NCBI GenBank assembly: GCA_048593225.1
Contig: CM109175.1
Span: forward strand, 261,543,655-261,607,654
DNA from: Sarcophilus harrisii
Taxonomy: Eukaryota
Length of the DNA stretch: 64,000 nt
Direction: 5' to 3'
Part shown: positions 3,330 through 64,000 of the stretch, piece after piece
Layout of the letters: each line of letters opens with the position of its first letter
Position numbering within the stretch: the first letter of the stretch is position 1
The notes under the pieces: model-generated
The model's database searches: none
Told to the model about the DNA's origin: nothing
Seen by the model: the letters and a program-made list of their open reading frames with translations, nothing else
Position numbers and translations under genes: made by a program

Positions 3330-3985
3330 GAAGAAATATTTTTTTATGCATATATATTTATACAATTATTGTGGTGCACAAGAAAAACCAGATCAAATCA
3401 GTAAAAAAAGAAAGAAGAAGAAAATGCAAGCAAGCAACAACAAAAAGAGTAGAAATGCCATGTTGTGGTCCACACTCAGTTGTTCTCTTTCTGGGTGTGG
3501 GTGGCTCTCTTCATTACAAGATCATTGGAACTGGTTTGAATCACCTCATTGTAGACAAGAGCCATGTCCATCAGAGTTGATTATCATATTTTCTTATAGT
3601 TACCATGCATAATGATCTCCTGGTTCTGCTCATTTCACTTAGCATCAGTTCATGTAAGTCTTTCCAGATCTCTCAAAAATCATCCTGCTGGTCATTTCTT
3701 ATAGGACAATAATATTCTATAACATTCATATACCATAACTTATTCAGCCATTCCCCAACTAATGGGTATCCACTCAGTCTTCAGTTTCCAGCCACTACAA
3801 AGAGGGCTGCCACAAACATTTTTGCACATGTGGGTCCCTTTCCCTCCTTTAAGATCTCTTTGGGATATAAGCCCAATAGTAACACTCCTGGATCAAAGGG
3901 TTTGCACAGTTTTATAGCCCTCGGCATCAGTCCAGATTGTTCTCCAGAATGGCTGGATCCGTTCACAGTTCCATCAACAAGAGAA
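3330..3985 (-). mobile_element. L1 fragment (ORF2 C-terminus plus 3'UTR)
   Basis: Minus ORF 3781..3966 gives ...GLYPKEILKEGKGPTCAKMFVAALFVVAGN, a typical L1 ORF2 C-terminus. 3330..3610 matches L1 3'UTR copies at 16310..16580 and 54140..54300. Confidence 0.7.
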
Positions 3986-5724
3986 GAAATATTATATTCC
4001 TAGGCCAGAGAACTTTTACAATCATTGATGGACAGATTGCCAGAACAATAATACTCCAAGGTTGGGGGGGACTATCTCGGTATCACATATTCCAAAGCCA
4101 GACTTTAGAATCACTGACAGAATGTTAGAACAGAAGTACCCCAAAGTCAGTGGGACCTCCCTACTACTGTCTCCCCTAGAAGTTATATTCCTTCACATCC
4201 ACAATAATTTGTTATCTGAAGGAGACAGCACCAGCAAATGGAGGGAACAAGTGAGGTTTCCCATAAGAGATGATACCTGAGCTTGAAAGAAAGTATTCTA
4301 AGCTGAAGAGATGAGGTTAGAGGGCCTTCCAGAATGGTAGGTAAGGAAGGAGGGAGAAAAGTTTATGCAAAGACAAGAAGAGAGATAGAATGGTAAGTCC
4401 AGGGAACAGTTTAAGTAAGTTAAGTTTGACATTAAGGGGACTAATAATGCATGTGTAGGGAAAATAGATTGGAGCTAAATTATAGATAGTTTTAAATTCC
4501 AGAACAAATAATTTTATTTTATCCCAGAAGTAATAGGGAGCCACTGAAGATTTTTGAGCAGATGAATGGCATAGCCAGAGTAGTAGATTTCATAGAGGAT
4601 GTGGGTTCAAATCCTATCTCTGTCATTTATGACTATTGTGGTATTGTATTTAACATCTCTAGGGAACAGTTTTTTAAAGAGCTTTGATTTGGGAGTAATT
4701 TGTAGGTTATATATATGTTATGAAAAATAAAGGTGAAGGGTACTCATGTGTAACCTATATGATGTGGTCTTCAGTTTTTGTTTTTGTTTTTTTTTTTTAA
4801 ACATGTATAAAGATGACAAGAGAAATAAGAAAATAGATGAGGTCACCAAAGGAAAAGTTGTAGAAAGAGAAAAGCCCAGCTTCAAGCCTTAGGAAGCACC
4901 CATTCTTAGAGGGTAAGAAGTGAGATAATCTAGCAAAGAGAATGTGGGGGGATTTTTACAGGTAGGGCGACAATAAGAATAGCCAGCATTTATAATGTGC
5001 TTTACAAATATCTTATTTTGTTCTCCTAACAATTCTGAGAGATAGGTTCCATTATTAGCTGAGGATCCTCAGGTTAATTGATTTGCCCAGTCACACAGCT
5101 AGTTTAGTATCCAAGGCAGGATTTGTACTCATTTTCCTGATTCCCATCAAGTTTAGTGCTCTATCCAACCCTGAGGCTTAACTCCTGAAAATAGAGATAA
5201 GGAGGGCAAGGGAGAAGAGAATAACTAAGGATGAGATGATTTACAGGATCAAATTCAGAAGATCCATCAAGTGGGAAGGAAAATGAGTTTTAGACTTTGT
5301 AGTTAAGATCATTAGAGAGTTGTTTCAGAAGAGTGGCAAATTAGAAATCATATTGTGGATGAAAAATGAGTGGATAATGAGAAATTGAAGGCAATGAATA
5401 TGGATGACTTTTTTCCAAATTTGGATAATTAAAAAAACTATTTTTTTACAATTTTAAAAAGTAGTTACTATGATCTCCAAAGTAAGAAGAAGGGTTAGAA
5501 CTTGTTTCTCCTAAACTCTGGAAGTAGAGGTGTTCAGAAAATGCCTTTGTCTAGACATAGCAAAGGAAAGTACTCCAGGAAGAAAGGCAAATGGAAGGTT
5601 AAGGGAGGATCTGGAACTTTGTGGTCTTTGGATGTCCCCAGACATGGTTATTTAGTCATATTTTACCTCTAGCCTGAAGCAACATACTACTTCCAGGGTC
5701 AGTAGTGTTCTTAGAAAATTATTC

Positions 5725-6530
5725 ATAAAATGAACCAACCATTCTGGAGAGCAATTTGGAACTATGCCCAAAGGGCTATAAAACTGTACATACTCTTTGA
5801 TCCAGCAGTGTCTCTGCTGATTCTGTATCCTAAAGAGATCATAAAAGAGAGAAAAGGAGCCACATGTGCAAAAAAAATGTTTGTAGCAGCCCTTTTTGTA
5901 GTGTCGAGGAACTAAAAATTAAGTGAATGCCTCTTAGTTGAGGAATGGCTGAATAAGTTATGGCACATGAATGAAATGGCATATTATTTTTGCATAAGAA
6001 ATGAATAAGCAGGCTTATTTCAGAAAAGGCTGAAAAAACTTACATGAATTGATGCTGAGTAAAGGGAGCAGAATTGAAGACCTTTATACACAGTAATGAA
6101 AAGATTATGTGATGAACAACTATGACGACTTTGCTCTTCTCAGTAATGAGATGATTCAAGACAATTCCAATAGACTTGAGATGGGAAGAGCCATCTGCAT
6201 CCAGAGAGAAAAGTATGGAGACTAAATGTGGGATCGAAGCATAATGTTCTCACCTTTTTTGTTTTTTTCTTTCTTGTGGGTTTTTTCCTGTTTGGTCTGA
6301 TTTTTCTTGTACAACATCATAAATATGAACATATGTTTAAAAGAATTACGTATATTTAACTCATATCAGATTACTAGCTATCTTGGGGAGGGGGGAGACA
6401 GGAGGAGAGAGGAAGATAAGAGAGGGAGGGAGAAAAACTTGAAGCACAAAGTCTTACAAAAATGAATGTTTTGAAAATGTAAACTATCTTTATATGTATT
6501 TGGAAAAAAAATAAAATACTATTGCAAATT
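5725..6530 (+). mobile_element. L1 3' end (ORF2 C-terminus plus 3'UTR); tail partly duplicated at 6595..6670
   Basis: ORF 5730..5915 gives WRAIWNYAQRAIKLYILFDPAVSLLILYPKEIIKERKGATCAKKMFVAALFVV (L1 ORF2 end). Downstream matches L1 3'UTR (gatgctgagtaaagggagcag...ggggaggggggagac...). A second partial tail copy lies at 6595..6670. Confidence 0.7.
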
Positions 6531-18180: not shown

Positions 18181-18247
18181 AGCTTGACAACTGAGAAAAG
18201 ATTTTTAATTTAGACTTGTTGGTCAACTCTCTTGTCTTTTCTTCTAG

Positions 18248-19632
18248 AAGCCATTGGTCTCTGTTGGAAGGAGGACCTTGCTTTCATCCAGTATCTTAAT
18301 GACTCCCCAGATGTTTTCCAAGAGTTTGAAGATGATTTAAAGAAAGTAGGCTGTGTTTTCCAAACTTGTTACCCTTTGGGAGTGCTTCAGTTTGTAGCAG
18401 AAGGAGAACACTTAGATCCATCTAATTGGGAGAAAGCTGTGGAGAATGCTTTTCAGAAAAACAAGAAGAGATATGCTATTCACTATGAGTCCAATACAGA
18501 TATTCTAAATATTCTGAAGAAGCAACAATCTCTAGTGAAGTCTTTTAAAAGTATACAAGAATACAAAGGCCCTTGCTTTGTAGGGCTAACTGAAGAAGTG
18601 AAGATGTTTGTACAACATATTCAGGAAATGGCTTTCAGTGAAAAGCCAGTGTGTGTGGAACATCCCATTCTCCATCTTCCTAGATTTACAGTAGTCAAAA
18701 ACATGATAACCAAGTTCCTCTTTCCTCACTCTCCAGTGACTATAGCCTTGGCAGAAGATCCTTTAGGTATGATCACTTTTCAGGGGCCCCAAAAGGATGT
18801 GCTTGAGGTGGAAAGGCAGTTTTATAGTCTGTTTAGTGCTTTTAAGAACTGGCCAGTCTCGCTCTCCACATTCCAAATACATTTTATCCAGGGCCTCCAG
18901 GAAGAACTCTTTAATGAGAATTTTTTCCTTTCTCAAGATATTTCGGCAGTGCTTAACACTTCTGATGGAATTAATATTTGGGGGCTTGATTTTGGAGAAT
19001 TGGTACAAGCAGAAGAATTATTGAAAAGCCTGGTTTATGAGAGGAAGATTGATATCGGGGAAGAGGTCCAGTGGGCAACCAGTGGCCTGGAATGGGAAAC
19101 TCTACTCATAGCACTAAGAAATCCAAAGAGAGTTAATTTTTATAGTGTCAAATCACAGCTAGGTATTTTGACTTCGGTGGTCATAGTGGGCACCAGGATT
19201 GAAGTAGCTGAGGCAGAAATGAATATTAGGGAATATTTGATGAGTTATTCAATAACTGAAGACAGAATTATTTCTCCTCGACTGGAGCTAGCTGAAGCCA
19301 GAGAAAACCTGTTTCGGATAATGAACTGGGGGGACTTAAAGGTGAATATTTGCATTCAAATCAACCATTCTACTTTAACTTTGAAACTAAAAGGACTAAG
19401 GAAGCATGTAAAAGAGGCCAGAGGAATTGTTCAAGCAGATCTAGATTCATTAACTATGAGAAGCATCCCCATAAGGCACAGAGGAGTACAACAATACCTT
19501 TTGGGAATTGGAGCTACAGTTCTTTTCACATTTGCTGAAGAACTCCAATGTTTGGTGAAGATGCAAGTGACAGAGAAAACCACAAATACTTTGCTCTCTG
19601 AGGTCTCAGCTTATAGGAAGGAGAATGAATTG
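18248..19632 (+). CDS. PARP14-like protein, exon 5 (large, 1385 nt; KH-like repeats)
   Basis: Acceptor cttgtcttttcttctag|, donor TTG|GTAAGA. 473-aa ORF. RVNFYSVKSQLGILTSVVIVGTRIEVAEAEMNIREYL parallels PARP14 KVNVQVSFNPENKQKGILLTGSKTEVLKAVDIVKQVW. Terminal ...YRKENEL parallels PARP14 IELQENEV, the segment immediately preceding macrodomain 1 in PARP14. Confidence 0.75.
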
Positions 19633-21775
19633 GTAAGAGTCATCAATTCTTGATAAAATTTCAGAACTGAAAGGGAACTTGAGTCTTTTTTCATCCTCTA
19701 TTCTAAGCCTAGAAAAATGGTTCTTCTATTTTTAGAGGACTTTAAAGTAGGTACCCAGTCTTGCTTATGCTCCTTTGGGGGTTTACTCATTTATTAAATA
19801 TTTATTAAGTGTATAGTATATGTAATAATGCACTAAAATTAGAGAGTATTCAAATTTGGTCCTTTTCTTCAAGGAGTATAAACTCCTTGATAAATCTAAT
19901 AAGATATATTCTTGTATAGGCATTTATCAGTGATATTGCAAGTTCAGTTCCAGACCACTGCAACAAAGTAGATATTGCAATAATGCGAAGTTACTTGGAT
20001 TTTTTCCCCTGTGCATATAAAAGTTATATTTATACAGTAGTCTACTCTACTAAATATACAATAGTATTATGTCCTTACTTTTAAAATATTTTATTACCAA
20101 AAATATGCAAACCCTTATCTGGGCCTTCAGTGGGTCATAATCTTTTTGCTGGTAGGGTCTTGTTTCTGTATTGATGGCTAATGATTGATCAGCTGAAGGC
20201 TATGATGACTATGATGAGTGGCAGTTTCTTAAAATAAGACAACAATGAAATTTGTCACATCTATTGACTATTCTCCCTTTAACCCTCAGAGAGCATTATT
20301 GGGTTATTAATTGACTTAATTTCAAAACTGTCATGTCTCAAGCAATAGGGCAGTCCAAAGAGAGGGAGAAACAGGGAACAGTCAGTTGATGGAGATGTCA
20401 GAATATAGGCATTTATTGGGCAAGTTCCACTGTCTTACAAGGGCATGGTTTGTGGCACCTCAGAACAATATAGTTAGTAACATAAAAGATCACAGAGCAC
20501 CATAAAAATATGATAATGATGAAAAAGTTTGAAACATTGTGAGAATTACCAAAGTGTGAGAGAGACATGATGTGAACCCCTGCTGTTAGAAAAATGGTGC
20601 CTCTTGAATTTCAAGGTTACCATAGTGAAAAATGCAATATCTGTGAAACACAATAAAAGGAAGCACAATTAGACAAGTTATGACTATACAAATTTTATTT
20701 TTTATATTTCATATTCTTTATAAAATATGTATATATTATTTATATTTATATTACAGAAATGCTGATATAGGGACAGCTACGTGGCTCAGATGATTCCTAA
20801 AGTTTCTTTTACCTCTAAGATTCTATGACCAAGTCATACATTATATCAGAATGTTCTGGATTTTAAGCTCTTGTCCCACTTGATGACATACTAAGAAATA
20901 ACCCTAGCTGACCCATTTCATCTCTCATTGGCTTTTAAAATTCTCCCTTTTTCCCTTTTCTCATTTGTGCTTACCATATCTACCATAGATAATTTTGTTT
21001 CCTCTCTACCCCCTTGATTTTATTTTCTTGTTTTATTGCTATAGCTAGCATTTCTACTTCTATATCAAATAAGAGTAAAAACACTGGACATTTTTGTCTT
21101 ACCAGTAATCTTATTGTGAAATATTCTAGTATTTCTCCAATTACGTCTTAAGTAGATTTAACCATGATTATTGATAGTTTATAAACCAATTAGATAGATG
21201 GTGCCCTGAGCTTCGGTTTTAGTTCTGGTTCCAGGACAAGTGAAATAGTCAGGGGCCACCAACCCTCTCTAAAATTATGCAAGTTGATTTGGAATGACAT
21301 AGTAGTTAGGATGAATAATGTTTTTAAAATGTTAAGTAGACTAGGGAATCAGGACTCTACAAATAAACTAATCTGGGGTAAATAGAAACTAGCTACCTCT
21401 AAACACACTAATTATCACCAAATAAGGATAAACACAGGGATTAGTAGCATTGAAGGGTTGCCCTTAATGGATTCATCAGTAATTCAATCAGTAATTGTGA
21501 GTCCTTTTCTACATTCCCTCTGGGGAATCCTAAACTAGACAGGGTGATTGGTGAAATATCAGTGTTCTGTTCAAGGCCTTCCCCGGGATTTCTTCATCTT
21601 TTAGTCCAATTATCTTTTTGTTTTTGTGTTTGTTAAATGAGAAATGGAAGAATAATTTATAAGTTTCTGAACTTTAGGATCTTATAGAGGAATCAAAAGA
21701 AAGATTTCTGAGTCTTCTGGGAATGTCGTGTTTTCTAATACATTTAGTAGGTTTCTTACTCTTTCTTTTTATTAG

Positions 21776-22615: not shown

Positions 22616-23211
22616 AAACCACTGAGATTGGTGAAAAGAAAGAGAAAGTAGCAGTTTCCTCTAAATTAAACCACATTTTTTTTTTTTTTTACTATAAGTT
22701 AGATGTGTAAAGTACCTTAGAGGTTATATAATTCAACTCCCTCTTCTCCAGCCTATTCCTAGGTTCCTTAAGTATGTGGAAATTTATGTATATAATGATT
22801 TTGTATATAAAAATTTATGTATGTAATAAGTTTCTGAATAAGTGGAAATTTGATCTTGCAATCTTAAAATTAAAAACAAATTTCTAATTTTGTCAACCTT
22901 CCACAGTTATATACATATATTTATATATAAACCTAAGCCCTTTGCTAGAATTCTAGTATAATTGATTATTTTCTTGGTATTAATTAAATTAGAAAATAGT
23001 TATTTCTCATTTTCTTTATGCTTCAGAAACTGAGGGCAATTTGTTCAGCCTTTTTCAGACTGAGTAATTTCAATTCTTTTGAGCTTTTCTCATACATTCT
23101 ATTATTTTAGCCTTTCATAGGCAGTATGACATCAGAATGGATCAGATTTTCCTTCATTTTCAAAAATTGAGGGTATTTGACTCATTATGAATTTCTTCTC
23201 TTTGTTTTCAG

Positions 23212-23739
23212 GTGACTCTCCACTAGGACTGGTTCAAGTATTGGGTAAGGAGATGAATTTAGTCAAATTTCAGGAAGCTTTTGAAGACTTTATGAATGGA
23301 TATTGCAGTGAAACATTTGACAGTGATAAAATAGTCACTTTCAGCCAAGACTGTCTTCAAAAGGTCTTAAGCCAAGGGTACTATTTCCCACTCAATCTGC
23401 ATCATCGTGGGAGTCTCTTACAGATCCAAGGTTTTCAGGAAGATGTGAAGAAAGCTGCTATTGTTGTACAAACTTTAATCCAGGAAGCTCATGACATAGA
23501 TAGAGCAGCAGAAGCCCTGAAATCTGTGGTTCAATGGCAATATGACATTGGTAACACAGGTCTTTCCCCATTTGATAAAACTACAAATCTAAAACTGGAA
23601 GCAGCATATAGGAAGGAAGAAGAGAACATTGAAATCATCTTGAATTCTAGAAAAGCCAAGGTCAACTTGAAGAAGAGGGAAGGTTTGGTACTAGACATGG
23701 GGACAATTTTTAAAATAAAGCGGGAAATCTGCATATGGG
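23212..23739 (+). CDS. PARP14-like protein, exon 7 (contains WWE domain)
   Basis: Acceptor tctttgttttcag|, donor TGGG|GTGAGT. ...ALKSVVQWQYDIGNTGLSPFDKTTNLKLEAAYRKEEENIEIILNSRKAKVNLKKREGLVLDMGTIFKIKRE matches PARP14 WWE (FIEWQYNDNNTSHCFNKMTNLKLEDARREKKKTVDVKINHRHYTVNL). Confidence 0.8.
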
Positions 23740-25034
23740 GTGAGTTTTTTTTTTCCTTTAATTTTCATTTCTCAATTAATCAGGTTTACTTGGCTTTGTC
23801 CCTTTCTTTAAGCTCTCATTTCTTCCCAGATTCATCCTTAATGAATAAGAATGAGAGAGGTGGTCATTCTGGAAGATATTTATCTATGTTAGAAAATTGG
23901 AAAATTAAAAGTAGTAGTTGTTAACCTTGTCCTGCACTAATTTTTCAATGGGATTCTTTAGCCAATTTCATACTTGCTTATAATGAGAAAAATATAAACA
24001 TTTGAAGTTCATTGATAATCCAAAAGGTACTTTAGTTAATTATTCTAATGTCTTATTTTATTTATACTAATACATTGTATTTGAATACTTTCCCTCAAAC
24101 ATCTAGAGAACAGCAAATCCAGAACATTCTCTGAAACTTTAAGCAAAAATGTAACTAATCACACCATAGGTTTCTACATTTGTAGTTTACCAATTGCTAA
24201 TAGAAAGACTATGCTAATAATTTTACCTTTTCCTCCCATTTAATTTTTTATCAGAATTTTTAACAAGAGATAAACACAGATATCTAATGTTTTTTTCACT
24301 TCCTCTTTACCAGTAATTAGTTAGATGGGCTAAAAAAGAAACAATTAAAAGGATTCTCTTGCCTTTAAAGAATTTAGAAATAAATGTGGACACTCAATTC
24401 AACAAACAGTAAGTGCTTACTATATACAGGGCCATAGAAAGCCACTTCCAGATAACAGACTGCTTTCCAAATTCAGATGGAATAAAACTGTTTAAAGTAA
24501 AAAGAGAAGCAGATGAATATTTTGAAGGCAAGTGTGATGATAAAGCCATTCTACATTTATTTCATTGCCTTCTTGAACACAGGAATACATAACTCCAGTA
24601 ACAAAACAATCTCTCCTTGAATTGGAAGCAAAATAGCAGCTGACCATTTCTAGATAATTCTCAATATTTAATTCAACAAATTAGGTACCTAATATGTGTA
24701 GAATGCAGTGCTGGAGGAAATGCAATTAGCATATTCAATAGGGAAATGCAATATATGCACATATATGTATACTAAAATGAACTAGTAAGAAAGATTAAGC
24801 TCTGATAATGTGGTTAGATTGCTATGGTTGCACTAGTCCAAAACACTTGAGTAATTGATGTTCTCTGTCTTCTCAGATATTAGTGATTTTAAACTATGGT
24901 AGGCAATTCATATTTCCTGAAAAGGTAACTTTTATTTCTAAACGATACCTCCTTTTTGGCTTGCTTCCTCTTTCCTGTTGAGTCCCTTCCCCCCCACCCA
25001 AACAAAACAATTTTGCCATACTTTAGTCTTGGAT

Positions 25035-50310: not shown

Positions 50311-50547
50311 TGGATAACTATTTTTCAGTATAATTGTTTTTTTTTTTTTTTGATAATCCTATGCAATTTATTTTTATGAATTTAAAAATATCATTTTGAG
50401 AAGGGTTTCCATATGCTTCACTACATTGTCAAAAGGGTCTAAATCTCTAAAAGATTAAGTACCTGTTCTAAAAACAGGAAAGTACAAAAGTACAAAAAAC
50501 ACTTTTTAAGGTAAGGGAAGGGTGGGCCTTTGCCTTGGACTAACTAG

Positions 50548-50624
50548 CCAATCAGGTGCTTCCATTGCTTCTTAAAGCCATTTCCGGGCTCTCCTACCTT
50601 ATTTTTTTTTCTGCTGGTGGCCTG
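50548..50624 (+). promoter_or_regulatory. Candidate promoter/first exon of a snoRNA-host-like transcript: CCAAT box (50548..50552), ~27-nt 5'TOP-like pyrimidine tract (50590..50616), consensus donor G|GTGAGT at 50624/50625
   Basis: agCCAATcag then cTCTCCTACCTTATTTTTTTTTCTGCTGGTGGCCTG|GTGAGTAG. Lies 1.7 kb upstream of the first intronic C/D snoRNA-like element. Confidence 0.35.
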
Positions 50625-52282
50625 GTGAGTAGTTGTTAAGGGGTCTTTTCAATCCTTTTTGAACCTGGGTTTAGGGGAACCATCCACTCATGCTTTTACT
50701 TCCAGATGCTAGCTGGAAGCAAGATTAGACTTTGTGAAATTATGAGAAAGTGTTGGGGTCATATAGAACTTTAGTTTGAGAGAGGGAAAACTGAGCCAGG
50801 CCTGGGAGCTGCTTATTAGGCAGGACTGTGCTGGCGGCAACCTGGAGGCTCCTAAAGGACTGCAAGCTGCACGGAGGGTATTTATGAATAGCTACAGGCC
50901 TGGGCTTGCTGTTTTATCAAAGGTGCTGCATCTAACGAATATTGCTCGTTTGCCAGAGGGCATGCAGATTTGAGTCTGAATCGGGATTCTGACCTTGCCC
51001 GCATGGCATCTTTTCCGTTGCCATCTCCATTTATGTTGGGTGGGTGAGGAAGATAGCAGGGACTGCTTCATTTACTTAACACTTCAAAAAATATTCATTA
51101 TTTCAACCTTGGGCTTTTGCTGCTAATAAGATTTAGCTTGGATTGGGGGAGTCTGGGGCAAACAGGGTTTTATTGGACCTGGGAAAGGTGTCTTGAAAAC
51201 TTGAGTTGTGTTACAATTTAGATTGCTAGCTGCTTTGCCCCAATACTTTGGCCCTGAATGGTGTTGGGCTTGAATTTCATTTTATCCCAACCACGTTTTC
51301 TCTTTTAATCTGTGAGATTAGCAATATGTGTTGTGATTTTTATGAAAGACAGTGCCTAAGAAATATCTGAAATAAAAAATATTTGGTGAAATGAAAGAAA
51401 TAAGATGGGTTGTGGGATTCCTCTTAGCCATTCTAGATTTTCGGCCTGGACAGGTTCTTTGGATGTGTTAACTTTTCCCTTGCAGTGAAATTTCTGGTGG
51501 TTATTTTTCATAGCGGTTTTTGCCATTTTTTTGGAGGGGGGTTTGTTGCGTCCTGTGCTGACAGAAAAATTAATATGGATCTTAAAAATATCTTGGATTA
51601 CATAACGGCTTTTCTACTTCAGTCGGGCTGTAGCGACAACCCTTAAAAGTGTAGATTTTTGCCAACAGCTATTCTCTTAAATATGGGTTAGTTTATTTTG
51701 CGGTTAGTGGTTATGATGAGGTTAAGGGAGGAATGAGAATACTGGGCTTTGTGCCTTTAAGAAGAGACCACGTGGCCTCTGAATTCTCAGGCAGGTCTGC
51801 AGGCAGTAGTGTTGCCTCCTGAGATATTTATTTAAAAATTACAGTAGTGGGTAAGTAAATCTATTTTTGTAAGCATTTATTTGGGAATTAGTTGAAACTT
51901 GGAATGCTAAGAAATGTGGAAATCATTGTAAAGAGGCCTTTTAAAATGGTCGTTTTCATTTTATTAGTGCTGGTGATCTGGTTTGGTGATCTGGTGATCT
52001 CAGCAAATAGATCCCACCTGAGGTGGAGACAGAATAGATCTTACAGAAAACGTTTTTCCTTTTTAAGTTATCCACTTTTTTTTTTTTTTTTTTAACTATA
52101 ATAATCTACACAGCTCTCTGTAGGCTGTATGTTGCTTATTAGAGTGGGAAACAGACAAGTGGGAAATGCTTCTTGTGTATTACTCCTTTGTTAAAAAGTT
52201 TTTCCTAATCAAAATCTTCCAGATATACTTGATTTTAATTTTTTTCTTCAGTAAAGAAAAAACATGGTTCCTGGGAAAGTTT

Positions 52283-52355
52283 TCTGCCATGATGAGCTGC
52301 ATATTCAGTCCGTGTTTCAAATGATCACTCTGATTATACATATGCCCTGAGCAGA
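52283..52355 (+). ncRNA. C/D-box snoRNA-like element, copy 1 (possible SNORD126-type, intronic)
   Basis: 5' stem tctgc(c); C box ATGATGA (52289..52295); conserved antisense block tcagtccgtgtttcaa; D box CTGA (52347..52350); 3' stem gcaga pairing with 5' stem. Sits 93 nt upstream of acceptor ccctcctttttag| (52448). Paralogous to 57103..57177. Confidence 0.5.
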
Positions 52356-53119
52356 GACCATATTAAGATTTTGAGGGTGGGTGAGGAGGGAAGAGGAGCC
52401 ACTGATCATTTTCATTTTTAAAAAATTACTAAAACCCCCTCCTTTTTAGCTGTTTCTCATTGCCAAGTCTACATTTAAGTATCAAAGTTAAAACTTTTTG
52501 TATATCTATGGAAGAGATGAGGTGACAGCAAATCATGCTTTTCTCTGCCAAAATTAGCCAGCAGTCATTAACATATTAAATTGTAAGCCTAATTCATATG
52601 GTTCATATGACCAGTTCTGGACAGCAATCAATAACTTTGTTCTGTTTTCAAAGTTTAGGTTGAAGATGGATTTGGCTTTTGGTAGGAAGGGGGCTAAATC
52701 CTTTGCAGGGGAGGAGACATGGCTTTATGGACAAAGCTGGGAGGCAGAAGTCCAGCACCAGAAAAATCAAAACTTCCTTGTCTCAGGACCAAGTTAACCA
52801 AGGTTGAGCTTTTCAGTATGGGAAGGGCCGAAGATGACATGGTTGCTACTCTGATTTAGGTAAGTACTAGGATTTGACTAAAGTAGATGTTTATGTCCCA
52901 AATACCTTAACAGGACAATGAGTTCTTGGTCATTGTTGTTGAAAAGTTTTAACTCTGCCTCAGTTTCCTCATCTATAAAATGGGGTTAATAACAGCACCG
53001 ACCTCCTAGAGAAGTTCTGGATCAAATGAGATAGCTGTAGTGCTTAGCACAGTGTGTGGCACGTGCTATATAAAATGTTAGCTATTAACATTTCACATTA
53101 CTGACTCTTAGAACAAGTG

Positions 53120-53311
53120 CTAATCATGTCTCTCATCTTGCATGTGCAAAATTATTTTCTTACCCAGGTGTAAGACTTTACACTTATCCCTGTTGAATTT
53201 CATCTTATTAGATTCAGCCCAGTGGTCTAACCCAAGATGCTGATTCTCTTGGCACAAAGTTCTAGATTTTGTCTTTATATTTGAATGAATATGCTCTATT
53301 AAATAGAGCAT
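53120..53311 (-). mobile_element. CR1/L3-like LINE RT fragment
   Basis: Minus ORF ...LDHWAESNKMKFNRDKCKVLHLGKK matches the conserved CR1-type RT motif (L..WA..N.MKFNK.KCKVLHLG). Confidence 0.4.
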
Positions 53312-54029
53312 ATCCTATTGGAGGAGGAGACTTATCCAGCCTAGCATCTGTACCATATATTGCTATCTTCTCCACAAGAAGAATGGGAGATAACATCTCA
53401 AAAAACTTGTCTAAAGTCTATATAAATGATATCTATAGTTTTTCCTTTTCCAAAGAAGAAATAAATTTAGATTGGTTGATCAGTTTTAGATGAACCCTTG
53501 CTGGCTATTTGTAACCACCATTTCCCTTTCCAGATGGTTACCAGACATTTGTTCTTAAATCTGTCAATCATGTAAACGCTGTCTTAAGGTAGATATAAAA
53601 TAAAAAGTTTATATATACATACACAGATTTAGATGTATATAAATATAAGGTAGATAAAAAAAAAAATTTAAAAAGAGGCACAAGCCAGTCCCTATTCTCA
53701 GGGAAATTCTAATGAATAGTTCAGTCTAGAATTTAAGTTCCATGTTCATTGCCTTTTATATTGCAGGCAATAGTTTCTTTTTTGAAAATCAGAACGTATG
53801 CTCTCCAATCTCGTTACCTTTTTTTTTTTTCATAATCTTTCAGCTATCTAATGGAGGCTCAGCTATAGCATATGGTAGCAGGGCTTTCCCATCTATTCAA
53901 ACTATTTTTTATTTCCATTTATATGTGTGCCCTCCAGTTGGATATAGACTGCACTCCTGTAATTATTACAGGGAGACCAAGCTCAGAAGTTTTGAGCTGC
54001 ATTGCGGCTAAAGTCAATGAAATACCCAT

Positions 54030-54430
54030 ATTAGGTTCAGAACTAGTATGATGTATACAGCAACAAGATTATATGATGATCATTTCTGATGGATATGACT
54101 TTCATCAAAAACGAGATGATTCAGGCCAGTTCCAATGATCTTATAATGAAGAGAGCCATCTGCACCCAGAGAGGACTGTGGGAACTAAGAGTAGATTACA
54201 ATATAGCACTTTCACTCTTTGTTGTGGTTTGCTTGAATTTTCTTTTTCTTTTTTTTTTTTTTTTAACTTTATCCGATTTTTCTTGTGCAGCAAGATAATT
54301 GCATAAATATGTATACCTATATTGGATTTAACATATATTTTTACCATGTTTAACATATATTGGATTACATGTCATCTGGGGAGGGGTGGGAGGGAAGGGG
54401 GGGAAATTTGAACACAAGATTTTTTTTTTT
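54030..54430 (+). mobile_element. L1 3' end (ORF2 extreme C-terminus plus 3'UTR)
   Basis: tacagcaacaagattatatgatgatcatttctgatggatatgactttcatcaaaaacgagatgattcaggccagttccaatgatcttataatgaagagagccatctgcacccagagag...ggattacatgtcatctggggaggggtgggagggaaggggg is the characteristic L1 3'UTR. Confidence 0.6.
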
Positions 54431-54439
54431 AATAACTTT

Positions 54440-54730
54440 TTTATCGATGGAACCCATGCCAGGGTAATTTATTACAACATTATCCTTTGCACTCACTTCT
54501 GTTCCGATTTTTTCCCTCCCTCCCTCCACCCCCTCCCCCAGATGGCAAGCAGTCCTATACATGTTAAATAGGTTACAGTATATCTTTAGATACAGTATAT
54601 GTGTGCAAAACCGAACAGTTCTCTTGTTGCTCAGGGAGAATTGGATTTAGAAGGTATAAATAACCCGGGAAGAAAAACAAAAATGCAAGCAGTTTACATT
54701 CATTTCCTAGTGTTCTTTCTTTGGGTGTAG
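54440..54730 (-). mobile_element. L1 3'-end family fragment (reverse orientation)
   Basis: ggaacccatgccagggtaatttattacaacattatcctttgc...ccctcccccagatggcaagcagtcctatacatgttaaata...gtatat resembles the shared unit at 376..843. Confidence 0.45.
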
Positions 54731-55142
54731 CTTCTTCTAGAACACAAGGTTTTTCAAGGGTCAGTGTTGAAAAATTATCCTTGCATATGTTTTGAAAGTA
54801 AAAAAAAAACTTGAATAAAAAACAAAAAGAGCTAGTATGATGATGAGTTACTGAGAATGGGCATCACCAGGCTAACTATTGTGCTGTGAATTAGTATAGG
54901 TCAGAAATCAGTGTATCTGAGATCTCTTCCCTTCTCCAAATGGGATCCGGACTACTCCATAGTTGCAGCTTTGCTGAGATAAATTTATAACTGTACACAT
55001 ACTTTTAGAGTGGGACTTCTTTCCCTCAGGATTTTTGTCATCTTGAGAAATTTTTATGCGACCCTGGGTATGTAGGTATATATAAAAAAGATACATAAAT
55101 GAAACATTTGCTGATAATAGATCATCAAGAAATCTATTAATT

Positions 55143-55275
55143 ATTATTTTTTGCTGAAGCAATTGGGGTAATTGACTTGCCCAGGGTCACAGCTGGGAAG
55201 TGTTAAGTGTCTGAGACCAGATTTGAACTTAGATCCTCCTCATTCTAAGGCTGGTACACCATCCACTGCACCATC
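55143..55275 (-). mobile_element. MAR1-type SINE fragment (reverse)
   Basis: gcttgcccagggtcacagctgggaagtgttaagtgtctgagaccagatttgaacttagatcctcctcattctaaggctggtacaccatccactgcaccatcttgctacc is the reverse complement of the MAR1 body. Confidence 0.55.
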
Positions 55276-56210
55276 TTGCTACCCCAAGAAATTTATTTTA
55301 AAACAATTTACTGCTAACATATAATTTTGTCTTTTATTAAAGATGATAGCAAATTTATATAATAATGATATGGATATACTTGCTTTTTACATAATGAATT
55401 AAGTTGGAGGAATATGGATGCCTTTGACTGTTGCAAAGTTTTTTACAACCTCATATGGGGTCACAAACCAAAGTTTTGTTTTAGGGTACCTACTTGAGGA
55501 CCATTTTCATTTTTAGTATTCAACAGAATGTTAAGTTGGATTAGTTACTTATGTTCATTATCTCCCACAGAATATAGGGACAATGGATTTAATAAAATTA
55601 TTATCTGATATGTGAAGATAACAAAGTTGAAAATTAATTTCCATATAAATTTCAACAATCATATCTTTATTTTTCCTTCAATTTAATACATCTTCTAAAG
55701 GGAAGAAAGTTGGCTGTCCAGTCTGTGTTTCACGTGATTTAATTTAATGTCACACATGACCAGGGGAGATCCCTGTGTTGTAGGATAAGAAAACCTTGCA
55801 TGTTGCCATCTTGTGGCATAATTAATAGCTGCATGGCCTTCTCATTTTCTCTACATAAAGGGAAAATTTTCAGTTTATAGAAAGATGCATTGTGACATAG
55901 TAGGCATTTAATAAATGCTCATTGATGGATTGATATAGCATCTTGGGTATGACTGATAGCAGGATTTGGTTAAGCAAAACTGCAACTATTGTATTTTACT
56001 GAAAAAAATGGTTCCTTGCTCTTAGTCTTTTGGGTATGTATATCAGTATTTCAAAATATGCTGTCTTTTGCTCAGGGTTATTAATTTTTAGGTTACCTTA
56101 TATTTGACTCTTACATCAGTCTTTAGTATTGAATATTCATGGCCAGTAAATCAGTATTGAACATTAAATAAGCTTAAAAAGCTTGTCAAAAAAAATGGTT
56201 GAAGTTTCTT

Positions 56211-56682
56211 TTTTATTTATTTATTTTTTATTTAATAGCCTTTTATTTACAGGATATATGCATGGGTAACTTTACAGCATTAACAATTGCCAAACCTCTT
56301 GTTTCAATTTTTTACCTCTTACCCCCCCACCCCCTCCCCTAGATGGCAGGATGATCAGTAGATGTTAAATATATTAAAATATAAATTAGATACACAATAA
56401 GTATACATGAACAAACCGTTATTTTGCTGTACAAAAAGAATCAGACTCTGAAATATTGTACAATTAGCTTGTGAAGGAAATCAAAAATGCAGGTGTGCAT
56501 AAATATAGGGATTGGGAATTCAATGTAATGGTTTTTAGTCATCTCCCAGAGTTCTTTCTCTGGGCGTAGCTGGTTCAGTTCATTACTGTTCCATTGGAAA
56601 TGATTTGGTTGATCTCATTGCTGAGGATGGCCAGGTCCATCAGAACTGGTCATCATATAGTATTGTTGTTGAAGTATATAAT
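56211..56682 (-). mobile_element. 5'-truncated L1 3' end with 17-bp TSD (atggttgaagtttcttt)
   Basis: Poly-T, then the shared L1 3'UTR unit. Identical atggttgaagtttcttt at 56194..56210 and 56684..56700. Confidence 0.75.
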
Positions 56683-56800
56683 GATGGTTGAAGTTTCTTT
56701 GAAACGATTTTTATGATTTAAATGAGAGCATGGTGTAGTACAATTAAATAATATAAAAACATCTGAATAATATCATTTCCATATATTTGGTGTCATTTCC

Positions 56801-56870
56801 TAGATTGTTGAGAGAGCTATCCAGTTTTAACGTGCATGACTGCAAGGCAGAAGCTGTACTTGGTATCAGA
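56801..56870 (+). other. Candidate non-coding exon of snoRNA-host-like transcript
   Basis: Acceptor tcatttcctag|ATTGTTG and donor ATCAGAG|GTGAGTT. The C/D snoRNA-like copy 2 lies in the following intron. Confidence 0.35.
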
Positions 56871-57102
56871 GGTGAGTTAAAAAAAAAATGTTTCTGCCTT
56901 CTATTTGTACAGAAGGGAGCACTCAGTATAACGGACTATATTTTGGAGGGGAAGTATTCTTTCACATTTTTCGGTCTTCTATCTTAGAGCTTTATACACT
57001 TTATAAATCCGGAAGCATAAAAAGCACTTCTGAAGCTCAAGGACTTATTCCCAGTTCAGGGAATACCACTAAAAAAGTAATCATAGTTACCTATCACACA
57101 CA

Positions 57103-57177
57103 GTCTGCCATGATGAAATGCATTTTCAGTCCGTGTTTCAACTGATTACCCTGATTGCATGCATACTCTGAGCAGAC
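57103..57177 (+). ncRNA. C/D-box snoRNA-like element, copy 2 (possible SNORD126-type, intronic)
   Basis: 6-bp terminal stem gtctgc/gcagac; C box ATGATGA (57110..57116); antisense block tcagtccgtgtttcaa immediately followed by D' box CTGA (57142..57145); D box CTGA (57168..57171). Sits 93 nt upstream of acceptor ccttattttag| (57270). Confidence 0.55.
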
Positions 57178-60100
57178 TAGAGCCAGAAGTGAACATTTGT
57201 TCCTGGACTTTTGGGTCTAGTTACTAGGCTATACCAATTTCTAACTTTTGTGTTTATAATACCTTATTTTAGATTTGACTGGTAACAACTTCCTTTCTAA
57301 AAGGGAACATTTGCCTCTTAAAAATTAATGACATTTTGAAGTGTTTGTTTTTAAATTTGCAGTATTCTGATAATTGGAAGGAATAAGTGAATGAATGAAA
57401 AAGCATTGGCAACCACTGCTAAGTGCTGGGGAAACATATGACTTTGACAAATATCAATAATCATGTTCATATTTGTATGATTATGAGAAACTGAATCTTA
57501 GAAAATTTTTAAAAATTTAATGTGTTATTTCATTGATACTTTTTATAAAAAATGGAATACCACTTACTTGTAACATGTATCATCCAGAAAAACAAATCCA
57601 TGTTTCTCATGTAAATCTGTATTATCTCTGCAAAAGGTGTATTCTTTTGGAGACTCCAGTTACCATTTTATTAATATTTTCTGATAGATCAAAAAAACCC
57701 CTTGAGGAAGGTGCAGTTGACTAATTTACCTCATTTGTATTTTTTGGGGGAAATTAAGGTGGGATGCTATGTGAAGTTAGTCTCACACATTATAAGAAAA
57801 TGGAGGATCACATTATTAACTTTTGGATAGTAATTTTTTGTAGTTTTTGGCCTTTTTTTGCAGAGATTGAAGCTGTAGTCAAATTCACTTTGTTCACCTG
57901 GATTGGTTAGTGATGGAAGCCATGATTTAAAATCCTACCAACAGTGACTTAGTTTCTCTTTATGGTAAGATTTTTGTTCACATTTAAAGAAAAACTATTA
58001 ATTGGATGTTTTATTCTTATAAGCTTAAAATGGATAGATCCAAGAAGTTGGGTGATACTAGATCTCAGATACCCCTCATTTGCAACTGTGCCTAATTCTT
58101 GATGTGTTACATATTGACGCTATTTTGGATGACATGGGAGGATTTTTCTGTCCAGAAAATGATGATCACAAAAACTTTGTTGCCAATCATTAGTAAAGGA
58201 CTTCGTAGCCCCTACACAAACTATAATTTTAAGTTTTGAAATGGACTGTCACTGAAGTTTAGGGTTTATATATATGTGACAAGATTTCAAGTGTGAATGG
58301 ACAACCACTAACTTAGCAGAGTGATTGCGTGCTGGAAATTATGTTGATATCGTGGGAAGAATAACAGTTGTGTGATTCTCAAGGAGCTAATTTGCAATCA
58401 AATATAATAAAAGGTTTGGACTGCTACTCAGAGGCATATACTCTTGTATATGTGACTTTTATTATATTTTGCAGTATAATCTTATTTATTTTAGTTTACC
58501 ATTAGAAGTTTGGCTATGAGGACAAATGCATGGTAATAGAATATGTGTAATAATATAAGCAATAAAATTATATTTGGCCTTGAAGGCATAATTCAGAGGG
58601 GATGTTACTGTTAAGACAATGAAGTTGGAAATTGGAGATTTCAGTGTTGGAAATCTTCAGTGGGATGTTATACTGGACTGGTATTGAATCTACACGTTGT
58701 ATTATTACACGTTGTTGATGGTAATTTCTCAGTTTTATGCTCTAGCCACAAAAACATTTTGTAATGATTTTGGACTTTTGATTTATGAGAGAATTATTAA
58801 AATTTAACTATTGATTATTTTGGGGGAGGAGAGAGGGCTCATTATTGATGGCCTCAAATGGCAACTGATATTTTTAATAAATGTATAATCTATGCTCGTT
58901 GTGTACAGAGGATAATTTTGTCAATTTGCCTAGTGTGGCTAGAAAATGTGGTAAACCCTTGGAGCTTTGAAAGCATTTTTTTTTTTCCAAAGTTTTAAAA
59001 ATTTTCCATTTTTTGAAAGACATTTAAAAATACAAAGCATACACTAAAGGTAAGTTCCTATAGAAATGGACAAATAATAAATCAATTTAAAATGGTTTGT
59101 TTGGGAATCAGGGTTGGGAGACCAGGAGTGGGTCAGAACAAAAAGTACAAAAGTAATTTTGGGGGGAATAGTTCTAAATTGTTTTTCAGATAAAGTGGAT
59201 CAATTTACAATTCTATCAACACTGCATTAGATAAATGTGCCATTCAGGAGGTGTGAATTGGAATCTCATGCTTTGGCTTTTCTCTAATAGTGATTTGGAG
59301 CATTTTTAAAATATGGCTCTTGATAGCTTGTTTTTTCTCCTTGAAAATTTTCAGTTTATATCCTTTGATCATTTTAAAAATTTTGATATATTTTTATAAT
59401 TCAGTGTATTAAGAAAAGCTAGTTTTGTTGAAATCCAGATGGCTGTTCCTCTCATTGCTTTGAGTTTTGGCAGTGGGATTTTAGGCCATCACAGAGTAAA
59501 TCTGGTCTTTCTTCACTCAGGGCACCATTGGATGGGTTGGCCATCTGTTAGTGCTTTCTGAATTTTGCGGGGCCAGACATTTTATAAGGTTAACCTGATC
59601 TAAAAACATGCTCTTGCTTATAAATGAGATAGTTGATCTTTTAAAAGGTTGATTTAAATTCTGAGGAGAAAGGAAAGATCTAGATTGAATTGGAACTAAT
59701 GGTGAGAACAATTATGGTAAACTTTGAGCTATGCACTTGAATTTAATCATTTGAAAGATTGCTTTTTGACTTTGAAATTTTTTTTCCTTTTCAGAAAGAA
59801 GATAGATTTTTACCTCTCCAAGAATACTGACGTTCTCCAGCAGAACTAATAAGTACCAAAAATGTTTGAATCTTCTTGCACAAAACCTGATAAAATTCCT
59901 TAATATTTGCCCTTGTTATCTCTGTAAATTAACAGCCAAGTAAAAATAAATAGTATTTGAATAAATGTTGAACATTTTTCTGTATTATATTTTTAAATGG
60001 AACAAGTGTACCTAAAACTTACATTTTATAACCTGGAACTTGATGAATTCATTACAATAACATTTGAGCAGAAGAATGGATAGAATTAAATTCCTGTAAC

Positions 60101-61159: not shown

Positions 61160-61550
61160 TAGTTTTATTTATATATATATTAATATTAATAATAATATTA
61201 GTATATTAATATATTAATGTTATTAATATATATTATATATCAATGTATATAATATATATAATTATTATATATAATAACATAATGTATATTATAATATATA
61301 ATATATATAATATATTAACATATATAATATATTATAACATACAATATATAATAATATATTAATATATATTAATATAATATTATTAATACATTAATATTAA
61401 TGTTAATAATATATATTATTTATTCTATTTATTTATATATTCTATTTGTTATATTTATTTACATATTATATTTATTATATATATAATATATATTATATAT
61501 ACATATTATATTTATAATGTATTATATATTATATTTACATATTATATGAC
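61160..61550. repeat. AT-rich low-complexity/microsatellite-like block ((TA)n, (ATATTA)n, (TTATA)n variants)
   Basis: Direct observation; ~390 bp almost exclusively A/T. Confidence 0.85.
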
Positions 61551-62069
61551 TTTCTAGTTTTATAATCTGCAAGGTCCCTTTCCAGATGTAAAATCACTGT
61601 GTTGGGATGACTTCCTGTACAACAACTTTCAATGAACTATATGAATAAGTATATAAACTTGTCACTAACATCGGTCACGTACAAAAAAGGACATGACAAT
61701 CTTGTCAGAATTGGGTATGCGCAACGGGTTGCTTAAAACAAAAATCAAGGCAGTATATTAAACGCCAAATGAGGGCTTCAGGATGTCAGTATAACGTATC
61801 TGTTAAACTACCCGAGACAAAAAAGTCTGCCCAGGTTAAGGTAATGCCACGGAAAAAAACATTTATGGAGCTATTTTAAGACGCAAAAATAAAAGTCCCT
61901 GCCCTCGTTAGGGTGATTTCACTTATATAAATAAGATTTGAAATAAAAGTCTGGTTAGTATTTGGGCAAAAGGTACGAGAGGATTACAGAAAAGGAATGA
62001 GTAGAAATAAGGGGGATTGTGTTCTTCTGCTAAGTTAAGTTTCAGTGAGCAAAAGATAGCCTTGGGGAA

Positions 62070-62690
62070 ATGATTTCACGGAAGTGAATTTACAGCGCGT
62101 GCGCAGTTACAAAACTCGTCGGCGCGAGGATAGCCGGCCGCATGCGCAGTTTGGCAGGTGGGGGAGGGGAGGACAAGAGAAAGCGACTCTGGTGGCGGCT
62201 GAGGCGCTCTCGGGCTTTCCTTTTCTGGCGGGCTCAAGTAAAGTTTTCCCTTTTTGGTGGTTCGAAGTTGCCTGAATTCAAAACCTTCCCAACCACACTC
62301 AAACCCCAGCCCCTTCATGGGCTTCAGTATCCCGCGAAGCCCAGGAAATCACTCCTCTTCCAAGCGGAAGGTCTCGGGGAAGCCCCTCACCCTTCCCTCC
62401 CCGCCCCCACTCCCCCAGGAGGCCTTGCGAGCTTTTTACCTCAGGCCCTCCACCCTCACTTAAGCGGTCTCCTAGTCCCGGGCTCTTGTGGGCTTTTCGT
62501 AAAAGCTGACGAGGATTCTAGTTCTAGAGCTGGAAGCAACCTCTGCGGCCTTCTAATTCATTCAGAAGGGACTGGAGAGCCCCCCAGTCTTATACCTAAC
62601 CCCTTCCGGATCTTTCCGGTAGTCTTCATAAAAGGTGGATTCGATGCCCTCTCGCCCTTCTACTCTACCATGTTTTGTGAATTGAATTGA
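62070..62690 (+). promoter_or_regulatory. CCNB1IP1: CpG island / TATA-less promoter region upstream of CCNB1IP1 coding exon
   Basis: Sharp rise in GC and CpG density (cgcgtgcgcag...cgtcggcgcgagg...agccggccgcatgcgcag) in an otherwise CpG-depleted window. The 182-aa + ORF here is Pro/Gly/Arg-rich with no domain, probably non-coding. Confidence 0.55.
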
Positions 62691-63828: not shown

Positions 63829-64000
63829 ATGTCTATATGTGAAGACATGTTGCTCTGTAATTATCGAAAGTGTCGAATCAGGCTCTCTGGCTATGCATGG
63901 GTAACTGCTTGCTCACACATCTTCTGTGACCAGCATGGCAGTGGTGAGTTCAGTCGGTCTCCAGCTGTCTGCCCTGCCTGCAACAGTACCCTTTCTGGTA
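63829..64000 (+). CDS. CCNB1IP1: CCNB1IP1 (HEI10) E3 ubiquitin ligase, first coding exon (N-terminal RING); exon begins at acceptor 63781, CDS continues beyond window or splices at 63997|GT
   Basis: MSICEDMLLCNYRKCRIRLSGYAWVTACSHIFCDQHGSGEFSRSPAVCPACNSTLSG versus human HEI10 MSLCEDMLLCNYRKCRIKLSGYAWVTACSHIFCDQHGSGEFSRSPAICPACNSTLSGK (~95% identity). Acceptor tttgattcctccttag| at 63780. Confidence 0.85.
   Translation, partial: MSICEDMLLCNYRKCRIRLSGYAWVTACSHIFCDQHGSGEFSRSPAVCPACNSTLSG

What the first reader, a model, noticed from the sequence alone, without database searches (positions are those of the whole stretch)
52301..57145. Conserved snoRNA guide is complementary to 28S rRNA UUGAAACACGGAC
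The antisense block gtccgtgtttcaa, immediately 5' of the D' box in copy 2, is perfectly complementary over 13 nt to UUGAAACACGGAC. That sequence is part of a universally conserved large-subunit rRNA segment (…CUUGAAACACGGACCAAGG…). The fifth-nucleotide rule predicts 2'-O-methylation of the second A in UUGAA. Copy 1 has a degenerate D' (ATGA), so the copies may differ in activity.
Basis: partly seen in the sequence, partly recalled or inferred. Interest (0 to 1): 0.5.

Follow-up and report, generated by a model that had tools for sequence, protein, structure and literature searches.

The report
Two copies of snoRNA SNORD126
These are two copies of the already described small nucleolar RNA SNORD126, lying upstream of the CCNB1IP1 coding exons, and their guide sequence points at the adenosine of 28S ribosomal RNA (Am1310, also numbered Am1323) that SNORD126 is already reported to methylate, so the finding is correct but ordinary.

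Summary
GTCCGTGTTTCAA occurs at 52308-52320 and 57129-57141 (+), each time directly 5' of a D'-type box: ATGA in copy 1, CTGA in copy 2. Rfam identifies both elements as SNORD126 (RF01168): 85.8 and 97.2 bits against a gathering score of 55. A SNORA79 lies 2.3 kb downstream. The first coding exon of CCNB1IP1, the human SNORD126 host gene, starts at 63829 on the same strand.

On a complete mammalian-type 28S (L191), both guides have one 13-bp Watson-Crick site. The fifth-nucleotide rule selects A1323, the second A of UUGAA. The literature assigns 28S-Am1323 (Am1310) to SNORD126.

Two corrections:
- The rRNA segment is conserved across eukaryotes, not universally. E. coli 23S has no match with up to 3 mismatches.
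- The ATGA D' box is weak evidence that copy 1 is impaired. All other boxes and the guide are intact. The precursor stem shows compensatory changes between the copies. Similarity between the copies stops at the snoRNA borders, which suggests selection on both.

What may be new is the two-copy arrangement in what is probably a marsupial genome. Interest is low.

The parts
52281..52357 (+). SNORD126 copy 1 (precursor with 7-bp external stem; the mature RNA probably spans about 52284-52355)
   Evidence: Rfam RF01168, 85.8 bits (gathering score 55), E 1.7e-17, full model 1-77. The rule for mature ends, 4-5 nt before box C and at most 5 nt after box D, comes.
52289..52295 (+). Copy 1 C box ATGATGA
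52308..52320 (+). Copy 1 D' antisense element GTCCGTGTTTCAA, complementary to 28S UUGAAACACGGAC
52321..52324 (+). Copy 1 D' box ATGA (variant)
52331..52336 (+). Copy 1 C' box TGATTA
   Evidence: Sequence read; aligned to the Rfam consensus CUGAUUA
52347..52350 (+). Copy 1 D box CTGA
57102..57178 (+). SNORD126 copy 2 (precursor with 7-bp external stem; the mature RNA probably spans about 57105-57176)
   Evidence: Rfam RF01168, 97.2 bits (gathering score 55), E 1.2e-20, full model 1-77
57110..57116 (+). Copy 2 C box ATGATGA
57129..57141 (+). Copy 2 D' antisense element GTCCGTGTTTCAA
57142..57145 (+). Copy 2 D' box CTGA
57152..57157 (+). Copy 2 C' box TGATTG
57168..57171 (+). Copy 2 D box CTGA
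59437..59582 (+). SNORA79-family H/ACA snoRNA in the same transcription orientation (a neighbour in the same cluster)
   Evidence: Rfam RF00600, 125.5 bits (gathering score 55)
63829..63999 (+). First coding exon of CCNB1IP1 (ATG at 63829; runs off the end of the window)
   Evidence: tblastn with residues 1-57 of a human CCNB1IP1 sequence written from memory: 94.7% identity, E 9.5e-35; sequence read
50540..50630 (+). Putative start of the snoRNA host transcript: a CCAAT box, an oligopyrimidine (5'TOP-like) tract and a CTG|GTGAGT donor site. This is inference only.
   Evidence: Sequence read; no expression data

Best explanation
The window carries two paralogous genes for the box C/D small nucleolar RNA SNORD126, 4.8 kb apart on the + strand. 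They lie with a SNORA79-type H/ACA snoRNA upstream of the first coding exon of CCNB1IP1, which is the human SNORD126 host gene.

Proposed mechanism:
- Each RNA is probably released from an intron of a host transcript. The host is either a long 5'UTR isoform of CCNB1IP1 or a separate upstream TOP-like non-coding transcript.
- Each RNA assembles with SNU13 (15.5K), NOP56, NOP58 and fibrillarin.
- Its 13-nt element 5' of the D' box pairs with 28S rRNA 5'-UUGAAACACGGAC-3'.
- Fibrillarin methylates the 2'-OH of the rRNA nucleotide paired to the fifth guide nucleotide upstream of D'. That nucleotide is the second A of UUGAA, human 28S Am1310 (Am1323 in the newer numbering).
- The 10-nt element upstream of the D box differs between the copies and has no convincing 28S target, so it probably does not guide.

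Shown here: family membership, box architecture, a unique 13-bp complementarity, the predicted position, and linkage to CCNB1IP1. Taken from the literature: Am1310/Am1323 exists in human rRNA and is assigned to SNORD126. Inferred: expression, intronic processing and methylation in this species, and activity of both copies.
For: - Both copies match Rfam SNORD126 far above the gathering score.
- C, D', C' and D boxes and the terminal stem are present in both.
- On the complete 28S of L191 (LSU_rRNA_eukarya model 1-3401), both D' guides have one 13-bp Watson-Crick hit. The fifth-nucleotide rule gives A1323, in the context GACCCGTCTTGAAACACGGACCAAGG.
- PMC9941101 lists '28S Am1323 (Am1310) ... SNORD126'. 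PMC8307265 calls SNORD126 the guide for A1310, reports the site absent in mouse and tissue-specific in rat. PMC9226514 says SNORD126 was first thought an orphan, was then predicted to interact with 28S rRNA, and was shown to methylate it conditionally. Am1310 was also detected by mass spectrometry.
- Duplex energy is about -20.5 kcal/mol, equal to the -20.4 kcal/mol average for snoRNA-rRNA duplexes quoted.
- Host gene: CCNB1IP1 exon at 63829-63999. snoSeeker lists CCNB1IP1 as the human SNORD126 host.
- Both copies look maintained. Similarity between them is confined to 52283-52355 versus 57104-57176. Stem pairs 1 and 2 differ by compensatory changes, U-A to A-U and U.G to G-C.
Against: - No rRNA, expression or methylation data exist for this species.
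- The 28S used is a proxy: a mammalian-type contaminant contig, L191.
- The window's only CpG island (61.8-62.6 kb) lies between the snoRNAs and the CCNB1IP1 coding exon. Intronic residence in CCNB1IP1 itself is therefore not shown.
- SNORD126 and Am1310 are dispensable in some mammals: the site is absent in mouse and tissue-specific in rat. Presence of the gene does not prove methylation.
- In human the site is only partially methylated, with a MethScore of about 0.6.
Confidence: 0.93

Rival explanations
1. Only copy 2 is functional. Copy 1, with D' = AUGA and a lower model score, is a decaying duplicate (pseudogene) that no longer guides methylation.
For: Copy 1 scores 85.8 bits against 97.2 for copy 2. 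Its D' box departs from CUGA. It has 17 differences from copy 2 over 77 nt.
Against: The C box, D box, C' box, the 13-nt guide and the spacing are all intact. The terminal stem is kept through compensatory changes. The flanks have diverged beyond detection while the 73-nt body is retained, which a neutral pseudogene would not show. C'/D' boxes are generally less conserved, and ATGA is an accepted D variant. From K-turn geometry (my own knowledge), A1 of AUGA can pair with U6 of the C' box UGAUUA, whereas the consensus CUGA gives a C.U mismatch.
Confidence: 0.15
2. The conserved element acts mainly on targets other than rRNA (mRNA stability or splicing, the FGFR2/PI3K-AKT pathway). On this view the rRNA complementarity is secondary.
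For: The literature reports non-canonical SNORD126 roles: knock-down changes 1050 genes, and predicted mRNA interactions centre on a region overlapping the D' box. One paper reports hnRNPK/FGFR2 regulation (title and abstract only).
Against: The part that is invariant between the two old paralogues is exactly the rRNA antisense element and the boxes. The predicted site coincides with a mapped Nm site assigned to this snoRNA. Non-canonical roles would add to the guide function rather than replace it.
Confidence: 0.1
3. The elements are SNORD18 (U18) family members that guide the neighbouring site Am1313 (Am1326).
For: There are sub-threshold SNORD18 hits of 37.3 and 29.2 bits. They share the guide core GUCCGUGUUUC.
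Against: The scores are below the SNORD18 gathering score of 41. The alignment shows a 3-nt insertion (aac) between the shared guide and the D' box. This moves the fifth-nucleotide position from A1326 to A1323. SNORD126 scores 50-60 bits higher. The linked gene is CCNB1IP1. From my own knowledge, SNORD18 resides in RPL4 introns.
Confidence: 0.02

Closest known systems
Human SNORD126 (Rfam RF01168; host gene CCNB1IP1; guide for 28S Am1310 = Am1323)
   Same: Full-length covariance-model match. Same box order and spacing. Same D' antisense element and the same predicted target nucleotide. Same linked gene. A SNORA79-type snoRNA lies nearby.
   Different: There are two copies here, 4.8 kb apart. 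Position 1 of the guide is A (an A-U pair) where the Rfam consensus has G (a G.U wobble). Copy 1 has D' AUGA. The 10-nt element upstream of box D differs from the consensus and between the copies. The genome is probably marsupial; this is my inference from SINE-like repeats and 35.6% GC and was not tested.
SNORD18 / U18 (Rfam RF00093), guide for 28S Am1313 (yeast snR18: 25S Am649)
   Same: Its antisense element overlaps (GUCCGUGUUUC) and binds the same rRNA segment. It gives the best non-SNORD126 Rfam score on these loci.
   Different: The score is below the gathering threshold. The D' box is 3 nt closer to the guide core, so the target lies 3 nt downstream in the rRNA. From my own knowledge, the host gene is different (RPL4). 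Whether the resemblance reflects common descent or convergence on one target segment cannot be decided here.

Membership tests
SNORD126 (RF01168) | Covariance-model score at or above Rfam's gathering score (55 bits) over the full model | tested here: met
   97.2 bits (57102-57178) and 85.8 bits (52281-52357), both covering model positions 1-77 of 77
SNORD126 (RF01168) | D' antisense element complementary to 28S rRNA, placing A1310/A1323 opposite the fifth nucleotide upstream of D' | tested here: met
   A single 13-bp Watson-Crick site on the complete 28S of L191, with the fifth-nucleotide position at A1323. This matches the 'Am1323 (Am1310) SNORD126' entry. It was tested on a proxy 28S, not on the species' own.
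SNORD126 (RF01168) | Genomic location in the CCNB1IP1 locus, sense strand | tested here: met
   CCNB1IP1 first coding exon at 63829-63999 on the + strand; human host listed. Intronic position within a CCNB1IP1 transcript is not shown, because a CpG island lies between them.
SNORD126 (RF01168) | Expressed, fibrillarin-associated RNA of about 75 nt; methylation of the target depends on it | not testable with these tools
   No RNA-seq or RiboMeth-seq data for this genome
Box C/D snoRNA (general) | C box RUGAUGA near the 5' end and D box CUGA near the 3' end, brought together by a terminal stem | tested here: met
   ATGATGA and CTGA in both copies, with a 7-bp stem that shows compensatory differences between the copies
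Box C/D snoRNA (general) | Internal D' and C' boxes, with an antisense element of at least 10 nt directly 5' of D' or D | tested here: met
   D' CTGA or ATGA; C' TGATTG or TGATTA; a 13-nt antisense element abutting D'. The element 5' of D is only 10 nt and has no convincing 28S target.
SNORD18 (RF00093) | Covariance-model score at or above the gathering score (41 bits) | tested here: not met
   37.3 and 29.2 bits
SNORD18 (RF00093) | D' register that places A1313/A1326 at the fifth position | tested here: not met
   A 3-nt insertion before D' in the alignment; the fifth position falls on A1323, not A1326

The most novel reading that the evidence does not exclude
SNORD126 may be an old derivative of SNORD18. 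On this reading a 3-nt insertion between the shared antisense core and the D' box moved the methylation site from A1313 to A1310. The gene was then duplicated in this (probably marsupial) lineage, and both paralogues stayed under selection. Copy 1 would carry a compensated C'/D' motif, with D' A1 pairing to C' U6. That would be a small, clean example of a new rRNA methylation site created by a register shift, and it would date SNORD126 to before the marsupial-eutherian split.
Probability: 0.25. Interest if true: 0.3.

Novelty: already known. Interest (0 to 1): 0.1.

Why it matters
It matters little beyond annotation. The SNORD126 to 28S-Am1310/Am1323 relation is published. That site is one of the variable, partially methylated positions discussed in work on ribosome heterogeneity, and it has been lost in mouse. 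Two intact copies in a distant, probably marsupial, genome would show that this 'optional' modification guide is old and has been maintained. That is a modest point for the comparative study of rRNA modification.

Tried and rejected
- A batch Rfam scan of 14 rDNA loci failed internally; a smaller batch worked.
- An Rfam scan of a 201-nt piece of L191 around the target, meant to show the LSU consensus, found nothing.
- Hebras et al. 2019/2020 (PMC6948968), the primary paper on rat and mouse SNORD126/Am1310, is not held. I used reviews that summarise it.
- The main text of Krogh et al. 2016 mentions neither SNORD126 nor A1310.
- The Jorjani et al. supplements are not held.
- Two literature searches for SNORD18 with A1313 or Am1313 found nothing. 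That assignment therefore rests on my own knowledge. It is consistent with the 3-nt register difference and with an A at position 1326 of L191.
- The 2-mismatch match at 55721-55733 was considered as a decayed third copy and rejected. It has no C box, no Rfam hit up to E = 10 and a blastn E-value of 0.41.
- No duplication unit larger than the snoRNA was found. blastn of 4-kb flanks shows nothing beyond the snoRNA body.
- The D-box guides were scanned against 28S and 5.8S. Only 9-10-bp matches with 3 G.U pairs appeared. 18S and snRNAs were not tested, because no such sequences were available.
Full report
**Observation**

The 13-mer GTCCGTGTTTCAA occurs exactly twice in the window, at 52308-52320 and 57129-57141, both on the + strand. 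Its reverse complement is TTGAAACACGGAC. In copy 2 it abuts CTGA (57142-57145). In copy 1 it abuts ATGA (52321-52324). The guide is therefore present in both copies.

Each element has the same layout:

| Feature | Copy 1 | Copy 2 |
|---|---|---|
| C box ATGATGA | 52289-52295 | 57110-57116 |
| D' box | ATGA, 52321-52324 | CTGA, 57142-57145 |
| C'-like box | TGATTA, 52331-52336 | TGATTG, 57152-57157 |
| D box CTGA | 52347-52350 | 57168-57171 |
| Terminal stem | 7 bp | 7 bp |

A third match with two mismatches at 55721-55733 is at chance level. Five of 100 shuffles gave at least three matches. The blastn E-value is 0.41. It has no C box and no Rfam hit up to E = 10.

**Identity**

A scan of the whole window against Rfam 15 gives three hits at gathering level:
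- SNORD126 (RF01168) at 57102-57178: 97.2 bits, E 1.2e-20.
- SNORD126 at 52281-52357: 85.8 bits, E 1.7e-17. The gathering score is 55, and both hits cover the full 77-position model.
- SNORA79 (RF00600) at 59437-59582: 125.5 bits.

All three are on the + strand.

A tblastn with a human CCNB1IP1 sequence that I wrote from memory hits 63829-63999 on the + strand. Residues 1-57 match at 94.7% identity, E 9.5e-35. The ATG is at 63829 and the exon runs off the end of the window. The paper that discovered SNORD126 lists CCNB1IP1 as its human host gene. A sheep gene list places SNORA79B next to CCNB1IP1. The locus is thus the orthologue of the human SNORD126/CCNB1IP1 locus.

**Target**

No rRNA is present in the window. 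I scanned public collections for the 19-mer CTTGAAACACGGACCAAGG.

One hit, L191, is a contaminant contig in an Arthrobacter assembly. It carries a 5.8S rRNA and a complete eukaryotic LSU rRNA covering model positions 1-3401 at 852-5920. It begins CGCGACCTCAGATCAGACGTGG at position 850. I recognise that start and the length of about 5070 nt as mammalian, human-like 28S (my own knowledge).

On this 28S the D' guides of both copies have a single 13-bp Watson-Crick site. The fifth nucleotide upstream of D' pairs with A1323, the second A of UUGAA, in the context GACCCGTCTTGAAACACGGACCAAGG. None of 20000 shuffled 13-mers had a perfect complement in this 28S. The duplex energy is about -20.5 kcal/mol. 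That equals the -20.4 kcal/mol average for snoRNA-rRNA duplexes quoted.

**Literature**

- SNORD126 was described in 2006 as an orphan with restricted expression (thymus and spleen in rat).
- A RiboMeth-seq table lists '28S Am1323 (Am1310) ... SNORD126', with a MethScore of about 0.6.
- A review reports that Am1310 is absent in mouse and tissue-specific in rat because SNORD126 is differentially expressed.
- Am1310 was also detected by quantitative mass spectrometry. It belongs to the less fully methylated positions.

First, the rRNA segment is conserved across eukaryotes rather than universally. All six loci tested with the 19-mer were eukaryotic LSU rRNA, including four labelled as bacterial assemblies. 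The 230 loci with enough sequence on both sides share the eukaryotic context GACCCGTCTTGAAACACGGACCAAGGAGTCTAAC. This set was selected by the motif, so it cannot measure conservation of the motif itself. The E. coli rrnH operon has no match to the 13-mer inside 23S, even with three mismatches.

Second, the ATGA D' box is weak evidence that copy 1 is impaired:
- C'/D' boxes are generally less conserved, and ATGA is used as an accepted D variant in genome scans.
- The other boxes, the spacing and the guide are intact.
- Similarity between the copies is confined to the snoRNA body, 52283-52355 versus 57104-57176, with no detectable homology in the flanks.
- The two outermost stem pairs differ by compensatory changes, U-A to A-U and U.G to G-C.

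This pattern is what one expects if both copies are maintained by selection. It does not look like one copy decaying.

From K-turn geometry (my own knowledge), position 1 of a D box pairs with position 6 of the C box. Copy 1 (A1 with U6 of cUGAUUA) can form that pair. Copy 2 and the Rfam consensus (C1 with U6) cannot.

**Second guide**

The spacer between C' and D is only 10 nt. It differs between the copies (TACATATGCC versus CATGCATACT). Its only 28S complements are 9-10-bp matches with three G.U pairs. It is probably not a guide. 18S and snRNAs were not tested.

**Relation to SNORD18**

The best non-SNORD126 score is SNORD18, at 37.3 bits (copy 2) and 29.2 bits (copy 1), below its gathering score of 41. 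The alignment shows the same antisense core, GUCCGUGUUUC, with a 3-nt insertion (aac) before the D' box. This moves the fifth-nucleotide position from A1326 (the old A1313, the U18 site from my own knowledge) to A1323 (the old A1310).

The loci are therefore not SNORD18 members. Outside the boxes and the guide the similarity is near chance. Common descent and convergence on one rRNA segment cannot be told apart here.

**Host transcript**

Polypyrimidine-AG sites lie about 90 nt downstream of both SNORD126 copies...cctttttag at about 52448 and ...ttattttag at about 57266. From my own knowledge, this is the usual spacing for intronic box C/D snoRNAs.

The window's only CpG island is at 61.8-62.6 kb. 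It lies between the snoRNAs and the CCNB1IP1 coding exon.

At 50540-50630 there is a CCAAT box, an oligopyrimidine tract and a CTG|GTGAGT donor site. Together they resemble the 5'TOP start of a snoRNA host transcript.

It remains open whether the snoRNAs sit in a long 5'UTR isoform of CCNB1IP1 or in a separate upstream non-coding host.

**Verdict**

The feature is the known SNORD126 with its known target. The two-copy arrangement in a probably marsupial genome is at most a new member of a known family. The marsupial assignment is my inference from SINE-like repeats around 55160-55290 and 35.6% GC and was not tested. Interest is low.

Noticed in passing
window 59437-59582 (+): An H/ACA snoRNA of the SNORA79 family (125.5 bits) lies 2.3 kb downstream of SNORD126 copy 2. 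It probably corresponds to SNORA79B, which a sheep gene list places next to CCNB1IP1.
   Followed up: partly
window 61800-62600: The only CpG island of the window lies between the snoRNA cluster and the first CCNB1IP1 coding exon (ATG at 63829). This suggests a proximal CCNB1IP1 promoter downstream of the snoRNAs.
   Followed up: partly
window 50540-50630 (+): A CCAAT box, a long oligopyrimidine tract and a GTGAGT donor site lie here. Together they look like the 5'TOP-type start and first exon of a snoRNA host transcript, 1.7 kb upstream of SNORD126 copy 1. This is inference from sequence only.
   Followed up: no
window 18232-19653 and 23187-23924 (+): Long ORFs give weak PARP14-like KH-domain matches, and one gives a WWE-domain match above threshold (PF22005, E 2.8e-08). 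They point to a PARP14-like gene or pseudogene upstream of the CCNB1IP1 locus.
   Followed up: partly
window 54368-54550; 54058-54419 versus 56297-56671: A G-rich/C-rich palindrome gives several sub-threshold miRNA-family hits. Two inverted copies of an interspersed repeat, about 72% identical, lie between the two SNORD126 copies. They are most likely transposon remnants.
   Followed up: no
window 61170-61560: About 400 bp of TA-rich low-complexity, microsatellite-like sequence lies just upstream of the CpG island.
   Followed up: no
loci L121-L240 (e.g. L124, L125, L186, L200, L191): More than 100 assemblies labelled as bacteria hold contigs with the eukaryotic 28S motif. Every one tested was eukaryotic LSU rDNA. 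L191, from an Arthrobacter assembly, is a complete mammalian-type 5.8S-ITS2-28S. These contigs are contamination in public prokaryotic assemblies.
   Followed up: partly
window 55721-55733 (+): GTCTGTGTTTCAC followed by GTGATT loosely resembles the SNORD126 guide and D' region. It has no C box and no Rfam hit, and the match is at chance level.
   Followed up: yes
window 55160-55290: A SINE-like repeat lies here that I recognise from memory as the marsupial MIR-related type. Together with 35.6% GC it suggests a marsupial genome. This was not verified with any tool.
   Followed up: no
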